DNA of 64,000 nucleotides from a virus: IMG/VR virus record IMGVR_UViG_3300027712_000018; one strand, 5' to 3'. Within the stretch, counting starts at the first letter, position 1. Each line of letters starts with the position of its first letter. Under the pieces are notes generated by a model, which was not told where the DNA came from, did no database searches, and worked only from the letters and a program-made list of their open reading frames with translations. The position numbers and the translations under genes were made by a program. Positions 3,041 through 13,492 of this stretch are shown here, one piece after another.

Positions 3041-3880
3041 TTATGTTTCCTTTTGTTTGATTGAAAGGTACTTAGTGCCGCCGTCCCAATTCATAAAGGA
3101 TATATCAAAGAAATCAATATCATGATTGGGGAAGTTCTTAACGAAGTCTTTGATATACGTTTCGTTGTCAATACCAAAGATATGTTTTGAATAGATAATC
3201 AGCCAGTTCTTGGTCTGAGTCATACGTTCGACGATCTTCGCTCTCTCTTCCAAAGGCATCTCAGTGAAAGAGAAACAGGCTATGCCAAGATCGGCCACGG
3301 GGAAACTGTCTAGGTCAACGTACTCTACGTTAGGAATGCCGATTGTGTCATGTAAGTGTTTTTGCAGAACATGGACTTCGGGAAAATCTAGGATAGAGTA
3401 CTTACCTTTGAATCCTAGTTTATGGATGATGTCTGTCATCTCACCGATACCAGCACCAATCTCTACGATGGAATCTAGTTTAGATAGGGATTCGATATCC
3501 CAACCACAAACGATCAGATGAGCCAAGAGTTGAACTCGATTGGCTGAGTAGTCTTTACCTTCGACGATTCGGAAATGTTTGTCGAAGTCTTCTTTGGTAC
3601 ATCCTACGAAAGGCTCTGTAAGAGCGTCATCATACATAGGATCTTCTGCCAACACGTCAGATACGATATCAAAGAACTCTCTGATAGGATTGAACGACCA
3701 TAGTGGAATGATGGCGGTTGACGCCCAAAGTTTGAACTTGTTTAGGTCTAGGGTGGCTGCATCATGAGCGAACACTTCCCGCATCTGAGTCCAAAAGGTT
3801 GAGTCGTTAACTCTCTTGGCCTCCCGCATCTTTAGGGAATATGGACTGTTCTCGTCGTTATCGCTCCAAATGATCATCAA
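3041..3880 (-). CDS. SAM-dependent methyltransferase (putative sugar O-methyltransferase-like)
   Basis: IVEIGAGIG motif I, ILDFPEV, FSFTEMP. Confidence 0.65.
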   Translation of the reverse strand: MMIIWSDNDENSPYSLKMREAKRVNDSTFWTQMREVFAHDAATLDLNKFKLWASTAIIPLWSFNPIREFFDIVSDVLAEDPMYDDALTEPFVGCTKEDFDKHFRIVEGKDYSANRVQLLAHLIVCGWDIESLSKLDSIVEIGAGIGEMTDIIHKLGFKGKYSILDFPEVHVLQKHLHDTIGIPNVEYVDLDSFPVADLGIACFSFTEMPLEERAKIVERMTQTKNWLIIYSKHIFGIDNETYIKDFVKNFPNHDIDFFDISFMNWDGGTKYLSIKQKET

Positions 3881-3897
3881 TCACTCCTATAATAAAA

Positions 3898-3973
3898 TGG
3901 TGCTGCCACGAGGACTTGAACCCCGCACCTGATGCTTACAAGGCAACTGCTCTACCAGATGAGCTATGACAGC
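3898..3973 (-). tRNA. tRNA-Thr(UGU)
   Basis: cloverleaf, loop CT-TGT-AA, encoded CCA. Confidence 0.93.
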
Positions 3974-3982
3974 AAGAATTCT

Positions 3983-4056
3983 TGGAGCGGGTGAGGGGAA
4001 TCGAACCCCTATCTTTAGATTGGAAATCTAAGGTCTTACCTTTACACAACACCCGC
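3983..4056 (-). tRNA. tRNA-Gly(UCC)
   Basis: TTAGA-TTTCCAA-TCTAA arm, CCA end. Confidence 0.93.
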
Positions 4057-4103
4057 ATGAATATGGTCCAGTTATTAAGGGAACTGGCAAACCTTATTGT
4101 TTA

Positions 4104-4184
4104 TTACTTCAAAGCAGCCTTAGCATACATATTGATTTCCATGCCGCAAGCAACTTCTGCAACTTTAGGTGTGTTCCAAGCCAT
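4104..4184 (-). CDS. pqqA: pyrroloquinoline quinone precursor peptide PqqA (26 aa, MAWNTPKVAEVACGMEINMYAKAALK)
   Basis: hand-translated; W-x-x-P N-terminus and E-x-x-x-Y core; AAGGAG RBS; TATAAATA at 4253-4260. Confidence 0.88.
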   Translation of the reverse strand: MAWNTPKVAEVACGMEINMYAKAALK

Positions 4185-4255
4185 ATTATAGTCTCCTTGT
4201 TAGTGTTGGACCAGTTATTTAAATTATTAAGGGAACTGACAACCCTTCGTTTTAT

Positions 4256-4717
4256 TTATACAGGTAATTCTGCCCACTGTTGAATTTTTTGTTTCAAAAC
4301 AGCAGTTGCTTCGTGTTTGTTTTTTTCACGATCCCAAACCCAATCGCCGGATGGAAGGGGTTGACCATACTTGACAACCATAGCAATTACACGAGGTAAG
4401 ACCATTAGATTGAAAGTTCTTTCATTATCCGGATTACGCTTTTGTTCGACTGTTTCATAAGGTACGCCAGCAATGAAGGCACGAGCAAGAAACGTAGCAC
4501 GATTCTCATTGCGAACATCCCACTTACGGTGGTGATTCAGTGAATGATACGCATTGAACGCTTTATCATCCCAACGAGGATACATACCATTGTTTCCAGC
4601 AGCATGCCATTGTTTCAATCCCCACTGATATTGTTTAAGTTGCTTACGCTCCTCAAAACGAATGATACGAGCTTCTTCAGAAAGGTGTTTAGATTTTACT
4701 TTAAGTTCTACAGACAT
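4256..4717 (-). CDS. hypothetical phage protein downstream of an amber-containing uORF
   Basis: 153 aa ORF; its TAGGAG RBS lies in a hairpin arm. Confidence 0.75.
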   Translation of the reverse strand: MSVELKVKSKHLSEEARIIRFEERKQLKQYQWGLKQWHAAGNNGMYPRWDDKAFNAYHSLNHHRKWDVRNENRATFLARAFIAGVPYETVEQKRNPDNERTFNLMVLPRVIAMVVKYGQPLPSGDWVWDREKNKHEATAVLKQKIQQWAELPV

Positions 4718-4812
4718 TTTATTCTCCTAAATTGATTTCAAATTGTTTATATTGAAAGTTCAATTTAGGGTGGACCAGTAATCTACGAGTTATCGCTCAT
4801 TGTAGTTCTCCA
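4715..4812 (-). promoter_or_regulatory. amber read-through leader: uORF MSDNS(TAG)ITGPP(TAA) at 4765-4800 plus anti-RBS hairpin
   Basis: GGAG RBS before the uORF; CCTAAATTGA pairs with TCAATTTAGG, covering the downstream SD. Confidence 0.6.
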
Positions 4813-4823
4813 TGTTGTTGTAG

Positions 4824-4956
4824 TGGTATCCAGCCTTGACATCTGCACATCCTGAGAAGGAATTTATCGGTTTTACCAGCAGATACAATGTCACAAATAT
4901 AAGATGCTCAAGTTGTCTCGTTTACTGTGCTTGAGTATAGCTTATAAAGGCTGAAT
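4824..4956 (-). ncRNA. orphan structured RNA ending in CCA (about 133 nt)
   Basis: terminal stem ATTCAGCCTT/AAGGCTGGAT followed by ACCA; two internal arms. Confidence 0.5.
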
Positions 4957-4959
4957 TAG

Positions 4960-5034
4960 TGGTGGTCCTAGTGGGGTTCGAACCCACGTCCAAGCGTTTT
5001 AGGGACGCCCGCATTACCTTTATGCTATAGAACC
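4960..5034 (-). tRNA. tRNA-Sup(CUA), amber suppressor
   Basis: GGCGT-CC CTA AA-ACGCT anticodon arm (C33), canonical T arm, CCA end. Confidence 0.85.
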
Positions 5035-6092: not shown

Positions 6093-6180
6093 TGGCGGAT
6101 CGTGTGGGAATCGAACCCACTCTACCCTTACAGGTAGTACGGTTTAGCAAACCGCTGCCTTACCAGCCGGCCCACGATCC
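6093..6180 (-). tRNA. tRNA-Ser(GCU)
   Basis: long variable arm, loop TT-GCT-AA, G73. Confidence 0.92.
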
Positions 6181-7253
6181 AAATCTTTACCTACATATTC
6201 GTGACTGTAACACACTCTGTCAGCGTGTTTAGCCAGATATTCTTGCGGCATCTTACGACTATAACCACTATCGTTTGGGTGTTTGTAGTCGCTTCTTGAG
6301 ATGCCGTTCTTACTTGTAGGAACCCAAAGATTAGACGCATTACGATACTCGCCTAGTCTTGGGTGAGCAGTCTTCGTAAAGAACCTCTTGCCCTCTCTAA
6401 GGTGGAGTTCTCCTAGTGCTTCTGTCATCCTTGCACCTATACCTAAGCCCTGAAACTCAGGTAGTACAACCGTTCTGTGACCCCGCCACGCCTTGTTTAG
6501 AGTGCCACTAGGCATCGCTAGACTTGAAAGAAATCCGACAGGTCTGTTGTTCCATGTGACAATCCAGCATCGTGAACCTTTATTGATGTTCCCGTCAAGA
6601 TAGTGATGGTCGCCGAACAATGACCAAGCTTCGGTTGAACAAGGTAGGAGTTCCAAAACGATGGCTGGCCTTTCTAACCTCCTTGTGGACATCTTACCAG
6701 TTTGAGTATCGAATACCCAATCTGGACGCAGCCACTCAATGATGTCATAGTGACAGGATGAAAAGACGATCTTCTTAAGACCCTTGGCGTGAATGTAACG
6801 GTGGACCGCATTCGAACAAGACTTGGCGACATCACGGTCAATAACAGAAGTGAACTCATCCACCACCACATCATTGTCTAGTTGTCTAGCCAAACGAGCA
6901 CGAAACTGTTCACCATTAGATAACACGTGGTAAGGACGAAGCCAACTTGGAATACTGTTGAACCCTACCGCACCAAGACGTTCTTGCGCTTGTTTGGCGT
7001 TTTCAAAATGAGATGCAACGCACTGATCAGGATTCCACTCTGGTTCCTTTTCAAAACCAAATTCCTTGAGCAGAGTACTCTTGCCAGATCCCGAAGGACC
7101 GACGATCAAGCCAATGCTGAAGTCTTTGAGAGTGGTTTCTCTATCAATTGGACTGATAGTAGGTGGAACAAACTCAGTAGTGCCATCAAACTTGTAGTCG
7201 AACATCTTACTGATTTCAGCAGTGATATCGTCTTGTCTAACGGTTGACTTCAT
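6144..7253 (-). CDS. ABC-type ATPase fused to a GNAT acetyltransferase
   Basis: GPSGSGKST Walker A, LSNGEQ signature, VVVDEF Walker B, VVLPEFQGLGIG acetyl-CoA motif. Confidence 0.85.
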   Translation of the reverse strand: MKSTVRQDDITAEISKMFDYKFDGTTEFVPPTISPIDRETTLKDFSIGLIVGPSGSGKSTLLKEFGFEKEPEWNPDQCVASHFENAKQAQERLGAVGFNSIPSWLRPYHVLSNGEQFRARLARQLDNDVVVDEFTSVIDRDVAKSCSNAVHRYIHAKGLKKIVFSSCHYDIIEWLRPDWVFDTQTGKMSTRRLERPAIVLELLPCSTEAWSLFGDHHYLDGNINKGSRCWIVTWNNRPVGFLSSLAMPSGTLNKAWRGHRTVVLPEFQGLGIGARMTEALGELHLREGKRFFTKTAHPRLGEYRNASNLWVPTSKNGISRSDYKHPNDSGYSRKMPQEYLAKHADRVCYSHEYVGKDLDRGPAGKAAVC

Positions 7254-8727: not shown

Positions 8728-8805
8728 TGGTTGCGGTGGGTAGGAATCGAACCTACGTATTCGGCTTATGAGACCGTGCTGGAACCACCTCCAGTCTACC
8801 CCGCA
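8728..8805 (-). tRNA. tRNA-Met(CAU), initiator-like
   Basis: GCGGGG...CCGCAACCA ends as in fMet tRNA; CAT anticodon. Confidence 0.85.
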
Positions 8806-13386: not shown

Positions 13387-13492
13387 TCTGTTTACAACTG
13401 TTATGTACGTTCATCAACCAACTGAGCTGCTCGGGGATTTTCCCCCAAGGATGGACTCGAACCACCGACCTCACATAACATGTGAAAACAGA
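13387..13492 (-). ncRNA. circularly permuted tRNA-like RNA (YrlA-like architecture)
   Basis: T arm GGTGG-TTCGAGT-CCATC, closed acceptor CTTGGGGG/TCCCCGAG, D-arm-like GCTCAGTTGG, long closing stem. Confidence 0.6.

What the first reader, a model, noticed from the sequence alone, without database searches (positions are those of the whole stretch)
4256..5034. Amber suppressor tRNA next to an amber read-through uORF that gates a downstream gene
Seen: tRNA(CUA) at 4960-5034. About 160 nt downstream is GGAG-N7-ATG AGC GAT AAC TCG TAG ATT ACT GGT CCA CCC TAA, i.e. MSDNS*ITGPP*. The final CCC TAA overlaps the 5' arm (CCUAAAUUGA) of a long hairpin whose 3' arm (UCAAUUUAGG) covers the SD of the 153 aa gene. 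Established: Pro-Pro-stop contexts slow termination. Inference: only ribosomes that read through the UAG (via the suppressor tRNA or low RF1 activity) reach GPP-stop, open the hairpin and allow translation of the unknown protein. This would be a stop-codon read-through sensor. Core genes here use the standard code (hsp20 and regA end in TAG), so this is local recoding only.
Basis: partly seen in the sequence, partly recalled or inferred. Interest (0 to 1): 0.88.

Follow-up and report, generated by a model that had tools for sequence, protein, structure and literature searches.

The report
Suppressor-tRNA-gated leader switch in phage
A T4-like phage that otherwise uses the normal genetic code places a 12-codon leader containing a UAG stop in front of an unknown gene, so that gene is probably translated only when the phage's own UAG-reading tRNA overrides the stop; about 77 related phage loci keep this design, which would give these unexplained phage "suppressor" tRNAs a concrete job.

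Summary
It comprises tRNA(CUA) at 4960-5034(-), the leader MSDNS-UAG-ITGPP-UAA at 4765-4800(-), a -14.6 kcal/mol hairpin at 4726-4769 hiding the Shine-Dalgarno sequence (SD), and a 153-aa gene.

I fetched relatives by the protein alone. Of 78 distinct upstream regions, 77 have the same design: SD, start, 0-9 further sense codons, in-frame stop, usually 4-5 codons, Pro-Pro, second stop, then an SD-masking hairpin whose arms covary. The strict form occurs in 64 of 78 leaders and 0 of 313 control regions.

The leader stop matches the neighbouring tRNA. UAG goes with CUA in 62 leaders. UGA goes with UCA in 2, one of them in a phage whose gated protein is 98% identical to that of a UAG/CUA relative.

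The Pro codons vary only at third positions and mostly do not pair with the SD, so the stretch after the stop is translated.

The window and a complete 223-kb relative use the standard code. In that relative the leader is the only such target.

Best reading (about 0.78): read-through-dependent translational coupling. All evidence is comparative.

The gated protein is a helical hairpin with no family or fold match, and its function is unknown.

This scan had already noted the design in other genomes. I found no publication describing it.

The parts
4960..5034 (-). Amber suppressor tRNA, anticodon CUA, encoded CCA end, non-canonical C33 (loop CCCUAAA)
   Evidence: ARAGORN; Rfam RF00005 62.8 bits; alignment with 11 other window tRNAs shows it alone lacks T33.
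4812..4959 (-). Spacer between the tRNA and the leader. No ORF, tRNA or Rfam family was detected. In the closest relative this position holds another tRNA.
   Evidence: Faint similarity of its 3' end to a tRNA 3' end is seen only by eye in alignment A1 and was not tested.
4808..4811 (-). Shine-Dalgarno GGAG of the leader ORF, 7 nt before its ATG
   Evidence: Sequence; conserved in relatives.
4765..4800 (-). Leader ORF ATG AGC GAT AAC TCG TAG ATT ACT GGT CCA CCC TAA, i.e. MSDNS-UAG-ITGPP-UAA. In-frame TAG at 4783-4785, Pro-Pro at 4768-4773, final TAA at 4765-4767.
   Evidence: The same architecture is found in 77 of 78 distinct homologous leaders and, in its strict form, in 0 of 313 controls.
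4726..4769 (-). Hairpin that sequesters the SD. The outer stem is 4760-4769 with 4726-4735, and there is an inner 6-bp helix. The 5' arm starts inside the second Pro codon and contains the leader's TAA.
   Evidence: Folding: -14.6 kcal/mol, z = -5.4. SD is paired in 70 of 77 leaders against 78 of 186 controls. Compensatory changes.
4724..4727 (-). Shine-Dalgarno GGAG of the gated gene. Its two G's and the preceding A are paired in the hairpin.
4256..4717 (-). Gated gene, 153 aa. Predicted long helical hairpin (residues 3-39 and 52-83) plus a small C-terminal domain. Phage family of unknown function.
   Evidence: ORF. No Pfam, PHROG or NCBIfam match. 845 clusters at 50% identity. AlphaFold2 pLDDT 82. 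No informative fold match.

Best explanation
The element is a translational gate set by stop-codon read-through.

The leader ORF is translated from its own SD. If release factor 1 terminates at the in-frame UAG, the ribosome leaves about 15 nt before the hairpin. The SD of the 153-aa gene then stays paired and the gene is silent.

If the phage's own tRNA(CUA) decodes the UAG, which sits in the suppression-prone UAG-A context, the ribosome translates five more codons. It reaches Pro-Pro-UAA, a sequence that is slow to terminate. Parked there it covers and unwinds the 5' arm (the anti-SD), frees the SD, and the gene is initiated.

Output therefore reports the ratio of charged suppressor tRNA to release factor. 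Because the tRNA lies just upstream on the same strand (co-transcription is inferred, not shown), the pair would act as a feed-forward AND gate or timer.

Shown by sequence comparison: the architecture, the frame, the hairpin, the tRNA linkage and the anticodon-stop covariation.

Inferred: charging of the tRNA, read-through, the stall, the unmasking, and what the gated protein does. That protein is probably indifferent to which stop codon is suppressed.
For: 1. Conservation in loci fetched by protein motif, not by leader. 77 of 78 distinct leaders parse as SD-start-(0-9 further sense codons)-stop1-...-CCN CCN-stop2, with 60 distinct leader peptides. The strict form occurs in 64 of 78 leaders and 0 of 313 control regions (p about 4e-60).

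2. tRNA linkage. The nearest upstream tRNA has anticodon CUA in 62 leaders, typically ending 105-125 nt before the main ATG. Odd-looped or ARAGORN-missed tRNAs with CUA in the loop account for most of the rest.

3. Covariation. Both loci with tRNA(UCA), L081 and L129, have TGA as the leader stop (Fisher p = 5e-4). L127 (CUA/TAG) and L129 (UCA/TGA) encode gated proteins 98% identical over the 93 residues compared, yet the tRNA and the 5' part of the leader are swapped.

4. The stretch after the stop is read as codons. The first Pro codon is CCA 51, CCT 14, CCG 9, CCC 3. The second is CCT 23, CCC 22, CCG 16, CCA 16. In 59 of 63 leaders the first Pro codon is not paired with the SD region. Variants point the same way. 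In some the frame after the stop runs to an ATGA overlap with the main start (L108, L113, L116). In others it is fused in frame to the main ORF (L112, L117). In L082 and L102 it contains a conserved ~83-aa ORF ending in PP-stop.

5. Geometry. The peptide after stop1 is 5 aa in 44 leaders and 4 aa in 13. Stop2 lies -10 to +3 nt from the 5'-most base pairing with the SD in 60 of 64.

6. Context. The base after stop1 is A 55, G 18, C 4, T 0. The window's four Pfam-checked TAG-ending genes are all TAG-T. When stop2 is TAG it is followed by C or T in 9 of 10 leaders.

7. Hairpin. The SD has at least 3 nt paired in 70 of 77 leaders against 78 of 186 controls (p = 2e-14). 5 of 10 stem pairs show compensatory changes in a 12-sequence subfamily.

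8. Established knowledge. [quoted passage not shown]

9. Standard code. In a complete 222.8-kb relative there is one suppressor tRNA, and the only strict leader in the genome lies directly after it.
Against: - There is no experimental evidence of any kind.
- The window's tRNA has C33 instead of the near-universal U33, which may weaken decoding.
- The window's stall motif T-G-P-P lacks the basic residue present in 63 of 77 relatives.
- The UCA/TGA covariation rests on two lineages.
- The leaders are phylogenetically related, so the counts are not independent events.
- Control upstream regions also show the SD paired in 42% of cases.
- Stop-codon usage in the two UCA phages does not show the expected TGA avoidance.
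- L082 has the leader but no suppressor tRNA within 4 kb.
- The gated protein's function is unknown, so the selective logic of the gate is unexplained.
Confidence: 0.78

Rival explanations
1. The leader senses release-factor activity rather than the phage tRNA. It would report low RF1 (or RF2 for the UGA versions) through near-cognate read-through, in the spirit of prfB autoregulation, and the suppressor tRNA nearby would serve another purpose.
For: UAG is read only by RF1 and UGA only by RF2 (own knowledge), so the stop identity would also fit an RF-specific sensor. L082 keeps the leader with no suppressor tRNA within 4 kb.
Against: The stop matches the anticodon of the adjacent tRNA in 64 of 64 clear cases. 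The tRNA and the 5' leader are exchanged together between near-identical gated genes. A phage has no evident reason to carry RF1 sensors in some lineages and RF2 sensors in others except in step with its tRNA. The two ideas are not exclusive, since read-through depends on the tRNA-to-RF ratio.
Confidence: 0.08
2. The element is a constitutive damper, not a switch. The in-frame stop simply scales expression of the gated gene down to a fixed small fraction, and Pro-Pro-stop with the hairpin is ordinary translational coupling.
For: Coupling through a PP-stop and hairpin also works behind a longer ORF (L082, L102). tRNA and mRNA probably come from the same transcript, so their ratio may be fixed.
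Against: A weak SD or weak start codon would damp expression far more cheaply. Keeping a dedicated tRNA gene and swapping it together with the stop codon argues that the tRNA is the input. A complete genome holds a single suppressor tRNA with this single strict target.
Confidence: 0.08
3. T4-style temporal control. The hairpin blocks translation of read-through early transcripts, and a late promoter inside the hairpin yields transcripts lacking the 5' arm, as for T4 e, soc and I-TevI (own knowledge). On this reading the leader ORF is incidental.
For: The window's hairpin loop contains TATAAACA, 7 of 8 matches to the late-promoter motif. TATAAATA is clearly used by this phage: 14 copies against 2.6 expected, 13 of them on the coding strand.
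Against: The loop motif is inexact and is absent from relatives' loops. This model explains neither the in-frame stop, nor the Pro-Pro frame, nor the tRNA covariation.
Confidence: 0.03
4. The conserved leader is a non-translated RNA or DNA element, for example a protein-binding site or a processing signal, and the apparent ORF is a coincidence.
For: GUAGAUUA and CCACC are nearly invariant at nucleotide level within the closest subfamily.
Against: Across the family the nucleotide sequence diverges while SD, start, frame, stop identity, Pro-Pro and stop2 are kept. There are 60 distinct leader peptides and all four Pro codons are used. No Rfam family matches.
Confidence: 0.03

Closest known systems
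Leader-peptide translational attenuators (ermC, cat; own knowledge)
   Same: A short leader ORF with its own SD. A ribosome held at a defined leader codon melts a hairpin that sequesters the SD of the next gene.
   Different: The input is not an antibiotic. Whether the ribosome reaches the stall site at all is decided by decoding of an in-frame stop codon by a phage tRNA.
RAPP/RAPG-type arrest peptides ApdA, ApdP, ApcA and SecM (PMC7897499, PMC10951233)
   Same: A regulatory uORF ending near an Arg-x-Pro-Pro-like motif. Relatives carry [R/K]PP (48) or [R/K]xPP (15) out of 77, including RGPP forms.
   Different: The window has T-G-P-P with no Arg. The nascent chain is only about 11 residues. 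The motif directly abuts a stop codon. The regulated genes are not protein-localisation genes. Arrest has not been shown.
C-terminal Pro-Pro termination stall (YbeL-PP; PMC3834316)
   Same: Pro-Pro immediately before the stop codon, known to interfere with termination and hold the ribosome there.
   Different: Here the stall would be used productively, to keep a hairpin open.
prfB (RF2) autoregulation by an in-frame UGA (own knowledge)
   Same: An early in-frame stop codon acts as a sensor of how efficiently that stop is read.
   Different: There is no frameshift and no internal SD-stimulated slip. Translation continues in the same frame. The product is not a release factor. The competitor is a dedicated tRNA.
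Stop-codon recoding in phages as a late-gene regulator (10.1101/2021.08.26.457843)
   Same: A phage-encoded suppressor tRNA makes expression of genes carrying in-frame stops conditional on the tRNA.
   Different: There, many structural and lysis genes are recoded. Here the genome is standard-code and the only strict-form leader found is a 12-codon one acting through RNA structure.
Synthetic suppressor-tRNA AND gates and feed-forward loops (PMC7969014, PMC11669171)
   Same: The logic is the same: output requires both the mRNA and a suppressor tRNA that reads an early amber codon.
   Different: Those are engineered, with the amber codon inside the target ORF. This one is natural and acts through a separate leader and hairpin.

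Membership tests
Leader-peptide translational attenuator (ermC/cat type) | Short leader ORF with its own SD upstream of the regulated gene | tested here: met
   GGAG-N7-ATG at 4798-4811; conserved in 77 of 78 leaders.
Leader-peptide translational attenuator (ermC/cat type) | Hairpin that sequesters the SD of the regulated gene and overlaps the end of the leader ORF | tested here: met
   -14.6 kcal/mol, z = -5.4. SD paired in 70 of 77 leaders against 78 of 186 controls. Compensatory changes. Stop2 lies within -10 to +3 nt of the anti-SD in 60 of 64.
Leader-peptide translational attenuator (ermC/cat type) | Ribosome stall in the leader that induces downstream translation | not testable with these tools
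   Needs toeprinting, reporters or ribosome profiling.
RAPP/RAPG arrest peptides | The R-A-P-G/P motif is essential for arrest (PMC7897499) | tested here: not met
   The window motif is T-G-P-P. Relatives have [R/K]PP in 48 and [R/K]xPP in 15 of 77, so some relatives may qualify.
RAPP/RAPG arrest peptides | Located upstream of a Sec/YidC pathway gene and monitoring protein localisation | tested here: not met
   The downstream gene is a helical phage protein with no family match.
C-terminal Pro-Pro termination stall | Two Pro codons immediately before the stop codon | tested here: met
   CCA CCC TAA at 4765-4773. Pro-Pro directly precedes stop2 in 66 of 77 leaders.
prfB-type in-frame-stop autoregulation | +1 frameshift at the in-frame stop, and the product is the cognate release factor | tested here: not met
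   The conserved frame after the stop is the zero frame. The product has no RF-like family match.
Stop-codon-recoded phage (code 15 or code 4 type) | Many genes, especially structural and lysis genes, carry in-frame reassigned stops, giving low coding density under code 11 | tested here: not met
   The window has long ORFs under code 11 and none of its ORFs of 70 aa or more that end in TAG extends more than 30 codons or fuses with a following ORF when the TAG is read through. The complete relative G005 has 88% coding density under code 11.
Functional amber suppressor tRNA | Cloverleaf tRNA with anticodon CUA | tested here: met
   ARAGORN; Rfam 62.8 bits.
Functional amber suppressor tRNA | Canonical 7-nt anticodon loop with U33 | tested here: not met
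   The loop is CCCUAAA, with C33. Most relatives have CUCUAAA. Several lineages share CCCUAA-type or 8-9-nt loops.
Functional amber suppressor tRNA | Aminoacylated and active in decoding UAG | not testable with these tools
   Needs acid-gel northern blots, a reporter, or mass spectrometry.
T4 e/soc/I-TevI late-promoter-in-hairpin control | Late promoter TATAAATA inside the SD-sequestering hairpin | tested here: not met
   The loop has TATAAACA only, and it is not conserved in relatives. Exact TATAAATA sites lie elsewhere.

The most novel reading that the evidence does not exclude
The 'orphan' suppressor tRNAs of standard-code phages may be dedicated regulatory RNAs. On this reading each tRNA and the leader carrying its cognate stop form a portable two-part translational AND gate or timer. 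The cassette can be exchanged as a unit (UAG/CUA for UGA/UCA) and controls one effector that does not depend on which stop is used. Such cassettes could be the starting point from which genome-wide stop-codon recoding evolved.
Probability: 0.4. Interest if true: 0.92.

Novelty: new variant of a known kind. Interest (0 to 1): 0.85.

Why it matters
Many phages with a standard genetic code carry suppressor tRNAs whose purpose is unexplained. This element offers a specific, testable target for them. It would be a natural counterpart of the suppressor-tRNA logic gates built in synthetic biology.

It would add a new input, stop-codon decoding by a cis-encoded tRNA, to the family of leader-peptide switches. 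It suggests how a phage can tolerate and use a suppressor before any genome-wide recoding. It also marks a large uncharacterised protein family (845 clusters at 50% identity) as probably connected to translation.

Two cultured phages carry the module, so it can be tested directly: Bacteriophage DSS3_MAL1 (MN602268; the name and the host listings suggest Ruegeria pomeroyi DSS-3, but this record names no host) and Synechococcus phage BUCT-ZZ01 on S. elongatus PCC 7942.

Tried and rejected
- **Function of the 153-aa protein.** Pfam, PHROGs and NCBIfam gave no hit. An HMM search against PDB sequences gave nothing below E = 0.18. Foldseek against PDB gave nothing at E <= 0.001. VIA-align wide gave only generic helical hairpins, Z about 8-9 over residues 1-84, which is within the helical background. 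The ESM Atlas gave no usable hit by features and TM <= 0.42 by shape. The search for longer forms found one 333-aa protein carrying PF00867, probably a gene-call fusion. The function remains open.
- **Bacterial genomes.** No relative was found in one genome per GTDB species by motif scan.
- **Stop-codon avoidance in the two UCA phages.** TGA 5 of 26 and 6 of 26, TAG 6 of 26 and 0 of 26. This is inconclusive.
- **Other amber-gated genes.** I found none convincing in the window. In the complete relative G005 there was one TAG and one TGA candidate, which is no signal.
- **Pth2 gating, suggested by earlier scan notes.** In G003 (the record of L084) the Pth2 gene has no such leader and no tRNA nearby. 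Gating of Pth2 was therefore not confirmed in any of my loci.
- **Repeated motif ACTGGWCCA.** It occurs in the leader and on both sides of pqqA, 3 copies against 0.9 expected, and 9 of 100 shuffles reach 3. Not significant.
- **T-box-like pairing of UGGU with the tRNA 3' end.** Rejected, because relatives have AAA or AGA at that codon.
- **Quadruplet decoding by the 8-nt-loop tRNAs.** The loop CCCCUAAU would read UAGG, but the leaders have UAGA. Rejected.
- **Reinitiation at the AUU after the stop.** 17 leaders have Val codons GUU, GUA or GUC, which are not start codons, and the idea does not explain the anticodon covariation.
- **Literature.** Four full-text searches found no description of this design.
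Full report
**1. The observation**

All genes and all tRNA genes of the window lie on the minus strand: 27 by ARAGORN and 27 by Rfam, which adds one at 8732-8804 that ARAGORN missed; ORFs.

The tRNA at 4960-5034 has anticodon CUA and scores 62.8 bits against the Rfam tRNA model. Downstream, after a 148-nt spacer (159 nt from the tRNA's 3' end to the leader's ATG), the sequence reads GGAG-N7-ATG AGC GAT AAC TCG TAG ATT ACT GGT CCA CCC TAA (4811 down to 4765).

The last C of CCC and the TAA open a 10-bp stem, 4760-4769 with 4726-4735. Its 3' arm runs into the GGAG (4724-4727) of a 153-aa ORF (4256-4717). An inner 6-bp helix extends the hairpin.

Folded alone, the hairpin has -14.6 kcal/mol and z = -5.4, and none of 200 dinucleotide shuffles folds as well. 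In a 131-nt context it is the dominant structure.

That includes C33 in the tRNA and the TAG ends of regA and hsp20.

**2. Conservation in loci chosen without reference to the leader**

The 153-aa protein has no Pfam, PHROG or NCBIfam match. It nevertheless belongs to a large family: 780 proteins in a word-seeded search and 845 clusters at 50% identity in an exhaustive search.

I fetched phage contigs by back-translated protein motifs from the N-terminal helix and the RAT-LAR segment, which select nothing upstream of the start codon. With the window and two GenBank phages this gave 78 distinct 110-nt upstream regions.

Of these, 77 parse into one architecture:
- an SD and a start codon (ATG, TTG or GTG);
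- 0-9 further sense codons of no conserved sequence;
- an in-frame stop (stop1);
- a short stretch beginning with Ile (49) or Val (17);
- Pro-Pro;
- a second stop (stop2), which directly follows Pro-Pro in 66.

There are 60 distinct leader peptides. In seven leaders the start codon is followed at once by the stop (TTG TAG or ATG TAG). So the codons before the stop are dispensable and those after it are not.

Applied to 313 other gene-upstream regions from the same loci, the same parser finds the strict form 0 times, against 64 of 78 for the leaders.

An independent pattern scan had already found the closest subfamily upstream of the same gene in about 20 contigs.

**3. Linkage to a suppressor tRNA and covariation with its anticodon**

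In 62 distinct leaders the nearest upstream tRNA has anticodon CUA. It usually ends 105-125 nt before the main ATG, so it abuts the leader.

Most of the remainder have tRNAs that ARAGORN misreads or misses. Rfam detects most of them (the L061 tRNA is seen by ARAGORN only), and their anticodon loops contain CUA.

Two loci carry tRNA(UCA) instead, and in both the leader stop is TGA: L081 with ML-UGA-VYAPP-stop, and L129 with MIIFS-UGA-...IRGPP.... Fisher p = 5e-4.

L129 is especially telling. Over the 93 residues compared, its gated protein is 98% identical to that of L127, which has tRNA(CUA) and a TAG leader. The tRNA and the 5' half of the leader are unrelated in sequence between the two. The tRNA and its cognate stop were therefore exchanged together in front of an unchanged gene.

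This also implies that the protein does not depend on which stop codon is suppressed. That argues against an RF1-specific or an anticodon-specific role for it.

**4. The stretch after the stop is translated**

The two Pro codons keep CC and vary freely at the third base. The first is CCA 51, CCT 14, CCG 9, CCC 3. The second is CCT 23, CCC 22, CCG 16, CCA 16.

In predicted structures the first Pro codon is unpaired with the SD region in 59 of 63 leaders, and the second in 45 of 63. Base pairing therefore does not explain their conservation.

Three natural variants make the same point:
- In L108, L113 and L116 the frame after the stop passes Pro-Pro, runs through the hairpin and ends in an ATGA overlap with the main start.
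- In L112 and L117 it is fused in frame to the main ORF.
- In L082 and L102 the start and stop (ATG TCG TAG, ATG TCT TTA TAG) are followed by a conserved ~83-aa ORF, 68% identical between the two. In L102 this ORF has no ATG before the TAG-preceding one. It ends in ...PP-stop at the hairpin.

**5. Geometry and codon context**

The peptide after stop1 is 5 residues in 44 leaders and 4 in 13. Stop2 lies between 10 nt upstream and 3 nt downstream of the 5'-most base that pairs with the SD in 60 of 64.

From established knowledge of the ribosome's mRNA channel (my own knowledge), a ribosome with stop1 in the A site reaches only about 10-12 nt further and leaves the anti-SD paired. With stop2 in the A site it must have unwound the anti-SD.

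The base after stop1 is A (55), G (18), C (4) and never T. A purine 3' of UAG favours suppression, according to classical E. coli work (my own knowledge).

The window's four Pfam-checked TAG-ending genes (regA, hsp20, clamp loader and one unknown) all have TAG-T and short extensions. A fifth TAG-ending ORF has TAG-A but overlaps tRNA-His and is probably spurious. TAG ends only 5 of 75 ORFs. Where stop2 is itself TAG, it is followed by C or T in 9 of 10 leaders.

Most relatives also place a basic residue before the prolines: [R/K]PP in 48, [R/K]xPP in 15, including RGPP. This resembles the R-A-P-P/G arrest motif of ApdA, ApdP, ApcA and SecM (PMC7897499, PMC10951233). The window's T-G-P-P lacks the Arg, so I do not file it there.

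**6. The hairpin**

At least 3 nt of the SD are paired to an upstream partner in 70 of 77 leaders, against 78 of 186 control starts (p = 2e-14). The mean z of the leader folds is -2.2.

The arm sequences differ widely between subfamilies. RNAalifold on 12 leaders of the closest subfamily finds compensatory double changes in 5 of the 10 stem pairs.

**7. Genetic code and number of targets**

The window has long ORFs under the standard code. None of its TAG-ending ORFs of 70 aa or more extends more than 30 codons or fuses with a following ORF when the TAG is read through, and there is no other convincing early-TAG gene.

A complete 222.8-kb relative (G005, direct terminal repeats) has 88% coding density under code 11. 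It has 39 tRNAs and exactly one suppressor (CUA, 130-204). Genome-wide it has exactly one strict TAG leader, at position 226 immediately after that tRNA.

In these phages the leader may therefore be the suppressor's main or only target.

**8. Mechanism proposed, and rivals**

The simplest account is read-through-dependent translational coupling.
- Termination at stop1 leaves the SD masked.
- Decoding of stop1 by the phage suppressor takes the ribosome to Pro-Pro-stop2. A slow exit there keeps the anti-SD unwound, and the gated gene is initiated.

The output depends on charged suppressor tRNA relative to the cognate release factor. The tRNA gene lies just upstream on the same strand, with no terminator-like site between in the window. 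The arrangement would then behave as a feed-forward gate or delay.

I put this at about 0.78. The rivals are:
- A pure release-factor sensor (0.08).
- A constitutive damper (0.08).
- T4-type late-promoter-in-hairpin control (0.03). The loop's TATAAACA is inexact and unconserved, although TATAAATA is clearly this phage's late motif.
- A non-translated element (0.03).

**9. Caveats specific to this window**

The tRNA has C33. The leader is 159 nt from the tRNA rather than abutting it. The stall motif lacks the basic residue.

The closest relative (L001/L055) has an identical leader preceded by a tRNA with a 9-nt loop containing CUCUAAA. C-rich or enlarged anticodon loops recur in several lineages, so C33 is probably not simple decay. 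Its effect is unknown.

**10. The gated protein**

AlphaFold2 (21-sequence alignment, mean pLDDT 82) predicts a long antiparallel helical hairpin (residues 3-39 and 52-83), two further helices (87-90, 96-117), a small beta-hairpin and a terminal helix.

No search gave an informative match. No relative was found in bacterial genomes.

I can say only that it is basic, phage-specific, indifferent to which stop is used, and typically embedded in tRNA arrays. A translation-related role is a guess.

**11. Relation to what is known**

The output half of the device, a stalling leader with an SD-masking hairpin, is a known kind. The input, an in-frame stop decoded by a cis-encoded suppressor tRNA, is new as far as I could find in four full-text searches.

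The nearest concepts are:
- prfB autoregulation;
- the proposal that stop-codon recoding regulates late phage genes (10.1101/2021.08.26.457843);
- engineered suppressor-tRNA gates (PMC7969014, PMC11669171).

Earlier notes of this scan describe the same design in other genomes. I treated them as leads. One of their leaders (MKRYHL-UAG-ITRPP) is present in my loci. Their suggestion of Pth2 gating was not borne out in the one Pth2-bearing record I checked.

**12. Cultured phages carrying the module**

- Bacteriophage DSS3_MAL1 (MN602268) has tRNA(CUA) at 13412-13485, the leader MKS-UAG-IRPPP-UGA, and the gene MAL1_00030.
- Synechococcus phage BUCT-ZZ01 (ON615601) has the leader MGGDAS-UAG-INLKPP-UAA, with a tmRNA gene about 0.9 kb downstream.

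Both were checked. They make direct experiments possible.

Noticed in passing
window 4104-4184 (-): A 26-aa PqqA precursor peptide gene (MAWNTPKVAEVACGMEINMYAKAALK, with the E-x-x-x-Y motif). It scores TIGR02107 39.5 bits against a cut-off of 20. It sits between the gated gene and tRNA-Gly, flanked by two similar hairpin plus ACTGGWCCA elements (4064-4072 and 4207-4215). I did not look for pqqB-E.
   Followed up: partly
window 4253-4260 (-) and 13 other sites: The T4-type late-promoter motif TATAAATA occurs 14 times against 2.6 expected, 13 of them on the coding strand. One copy overlaps the stop codon of the gated gene, just upstream of pqqA.
   Followed up: partly
window 4960-5034 (-); L061, L074, L087, L107, L122, L001, L057, L100: Suppressor tRNAs with non-canonical anticodon loops recur in several lineages: C33 (CCCUAAA), 6- or 8-nt CCCUAA-type loops, CCCCUAAU, and a 9-nt loop containing CUCUAAA. 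ARAGORN misreads or misses them. They may tune decoding or evade anticodon nucleases.
   Followed up: partly
L102 3260-3508 (+); L082 3704-3946 (+): A conserved ~83-aa ORF of unknown family is reachable only through an amber codon placed 2-3 codons after its start (ATG TCT TTA TAG, ATG TCG TAG). It ends in Pro-Pro-stop at the hairpin of the gated gene.
   Followed up: partly
L112 and L117, about 3880-4000 (+): The leader frame after the UAG is fused in frame to the gated gene, so read-through would give an N-terminally extended protein.
   Followed up: no
window 6144-7253 (-): A 369-aa protein combines an ABC-type ATPase P-loop with a GNAT acetyltransferase domain (PHROG 11143, function unknown). 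It lies inside the tRNA array.
   Followed up: no
L074 7688-8146 (+): A GOLLD RNA (Rfam RF02032, 168 bits) lies in a related phage contig a few kb from the module.
   Followed up: no
L134 2385-2803 (+) (Synechococcus phage BUCT-ZZ01): A phage-encoded tmRNA (tag ANDETFSMALAA) lies about 0.9 kb downstream of the gated gene.
   Followed up: no
window 8732-8804 (-): A weak tRNA match (Rfam 31.2 bits, gathering score 29) that ARAGORN does not report.
   Followed up: no
window 4780-4785 with 4712-4715 (-): RNAalifold also pairs AGAU (of UAG AUU) with GUCU (of AUG UCU) at the main start. All four pairs are invariant in the subfamily, so the pairing can be neither supported nor excluded.
   Followed up: no
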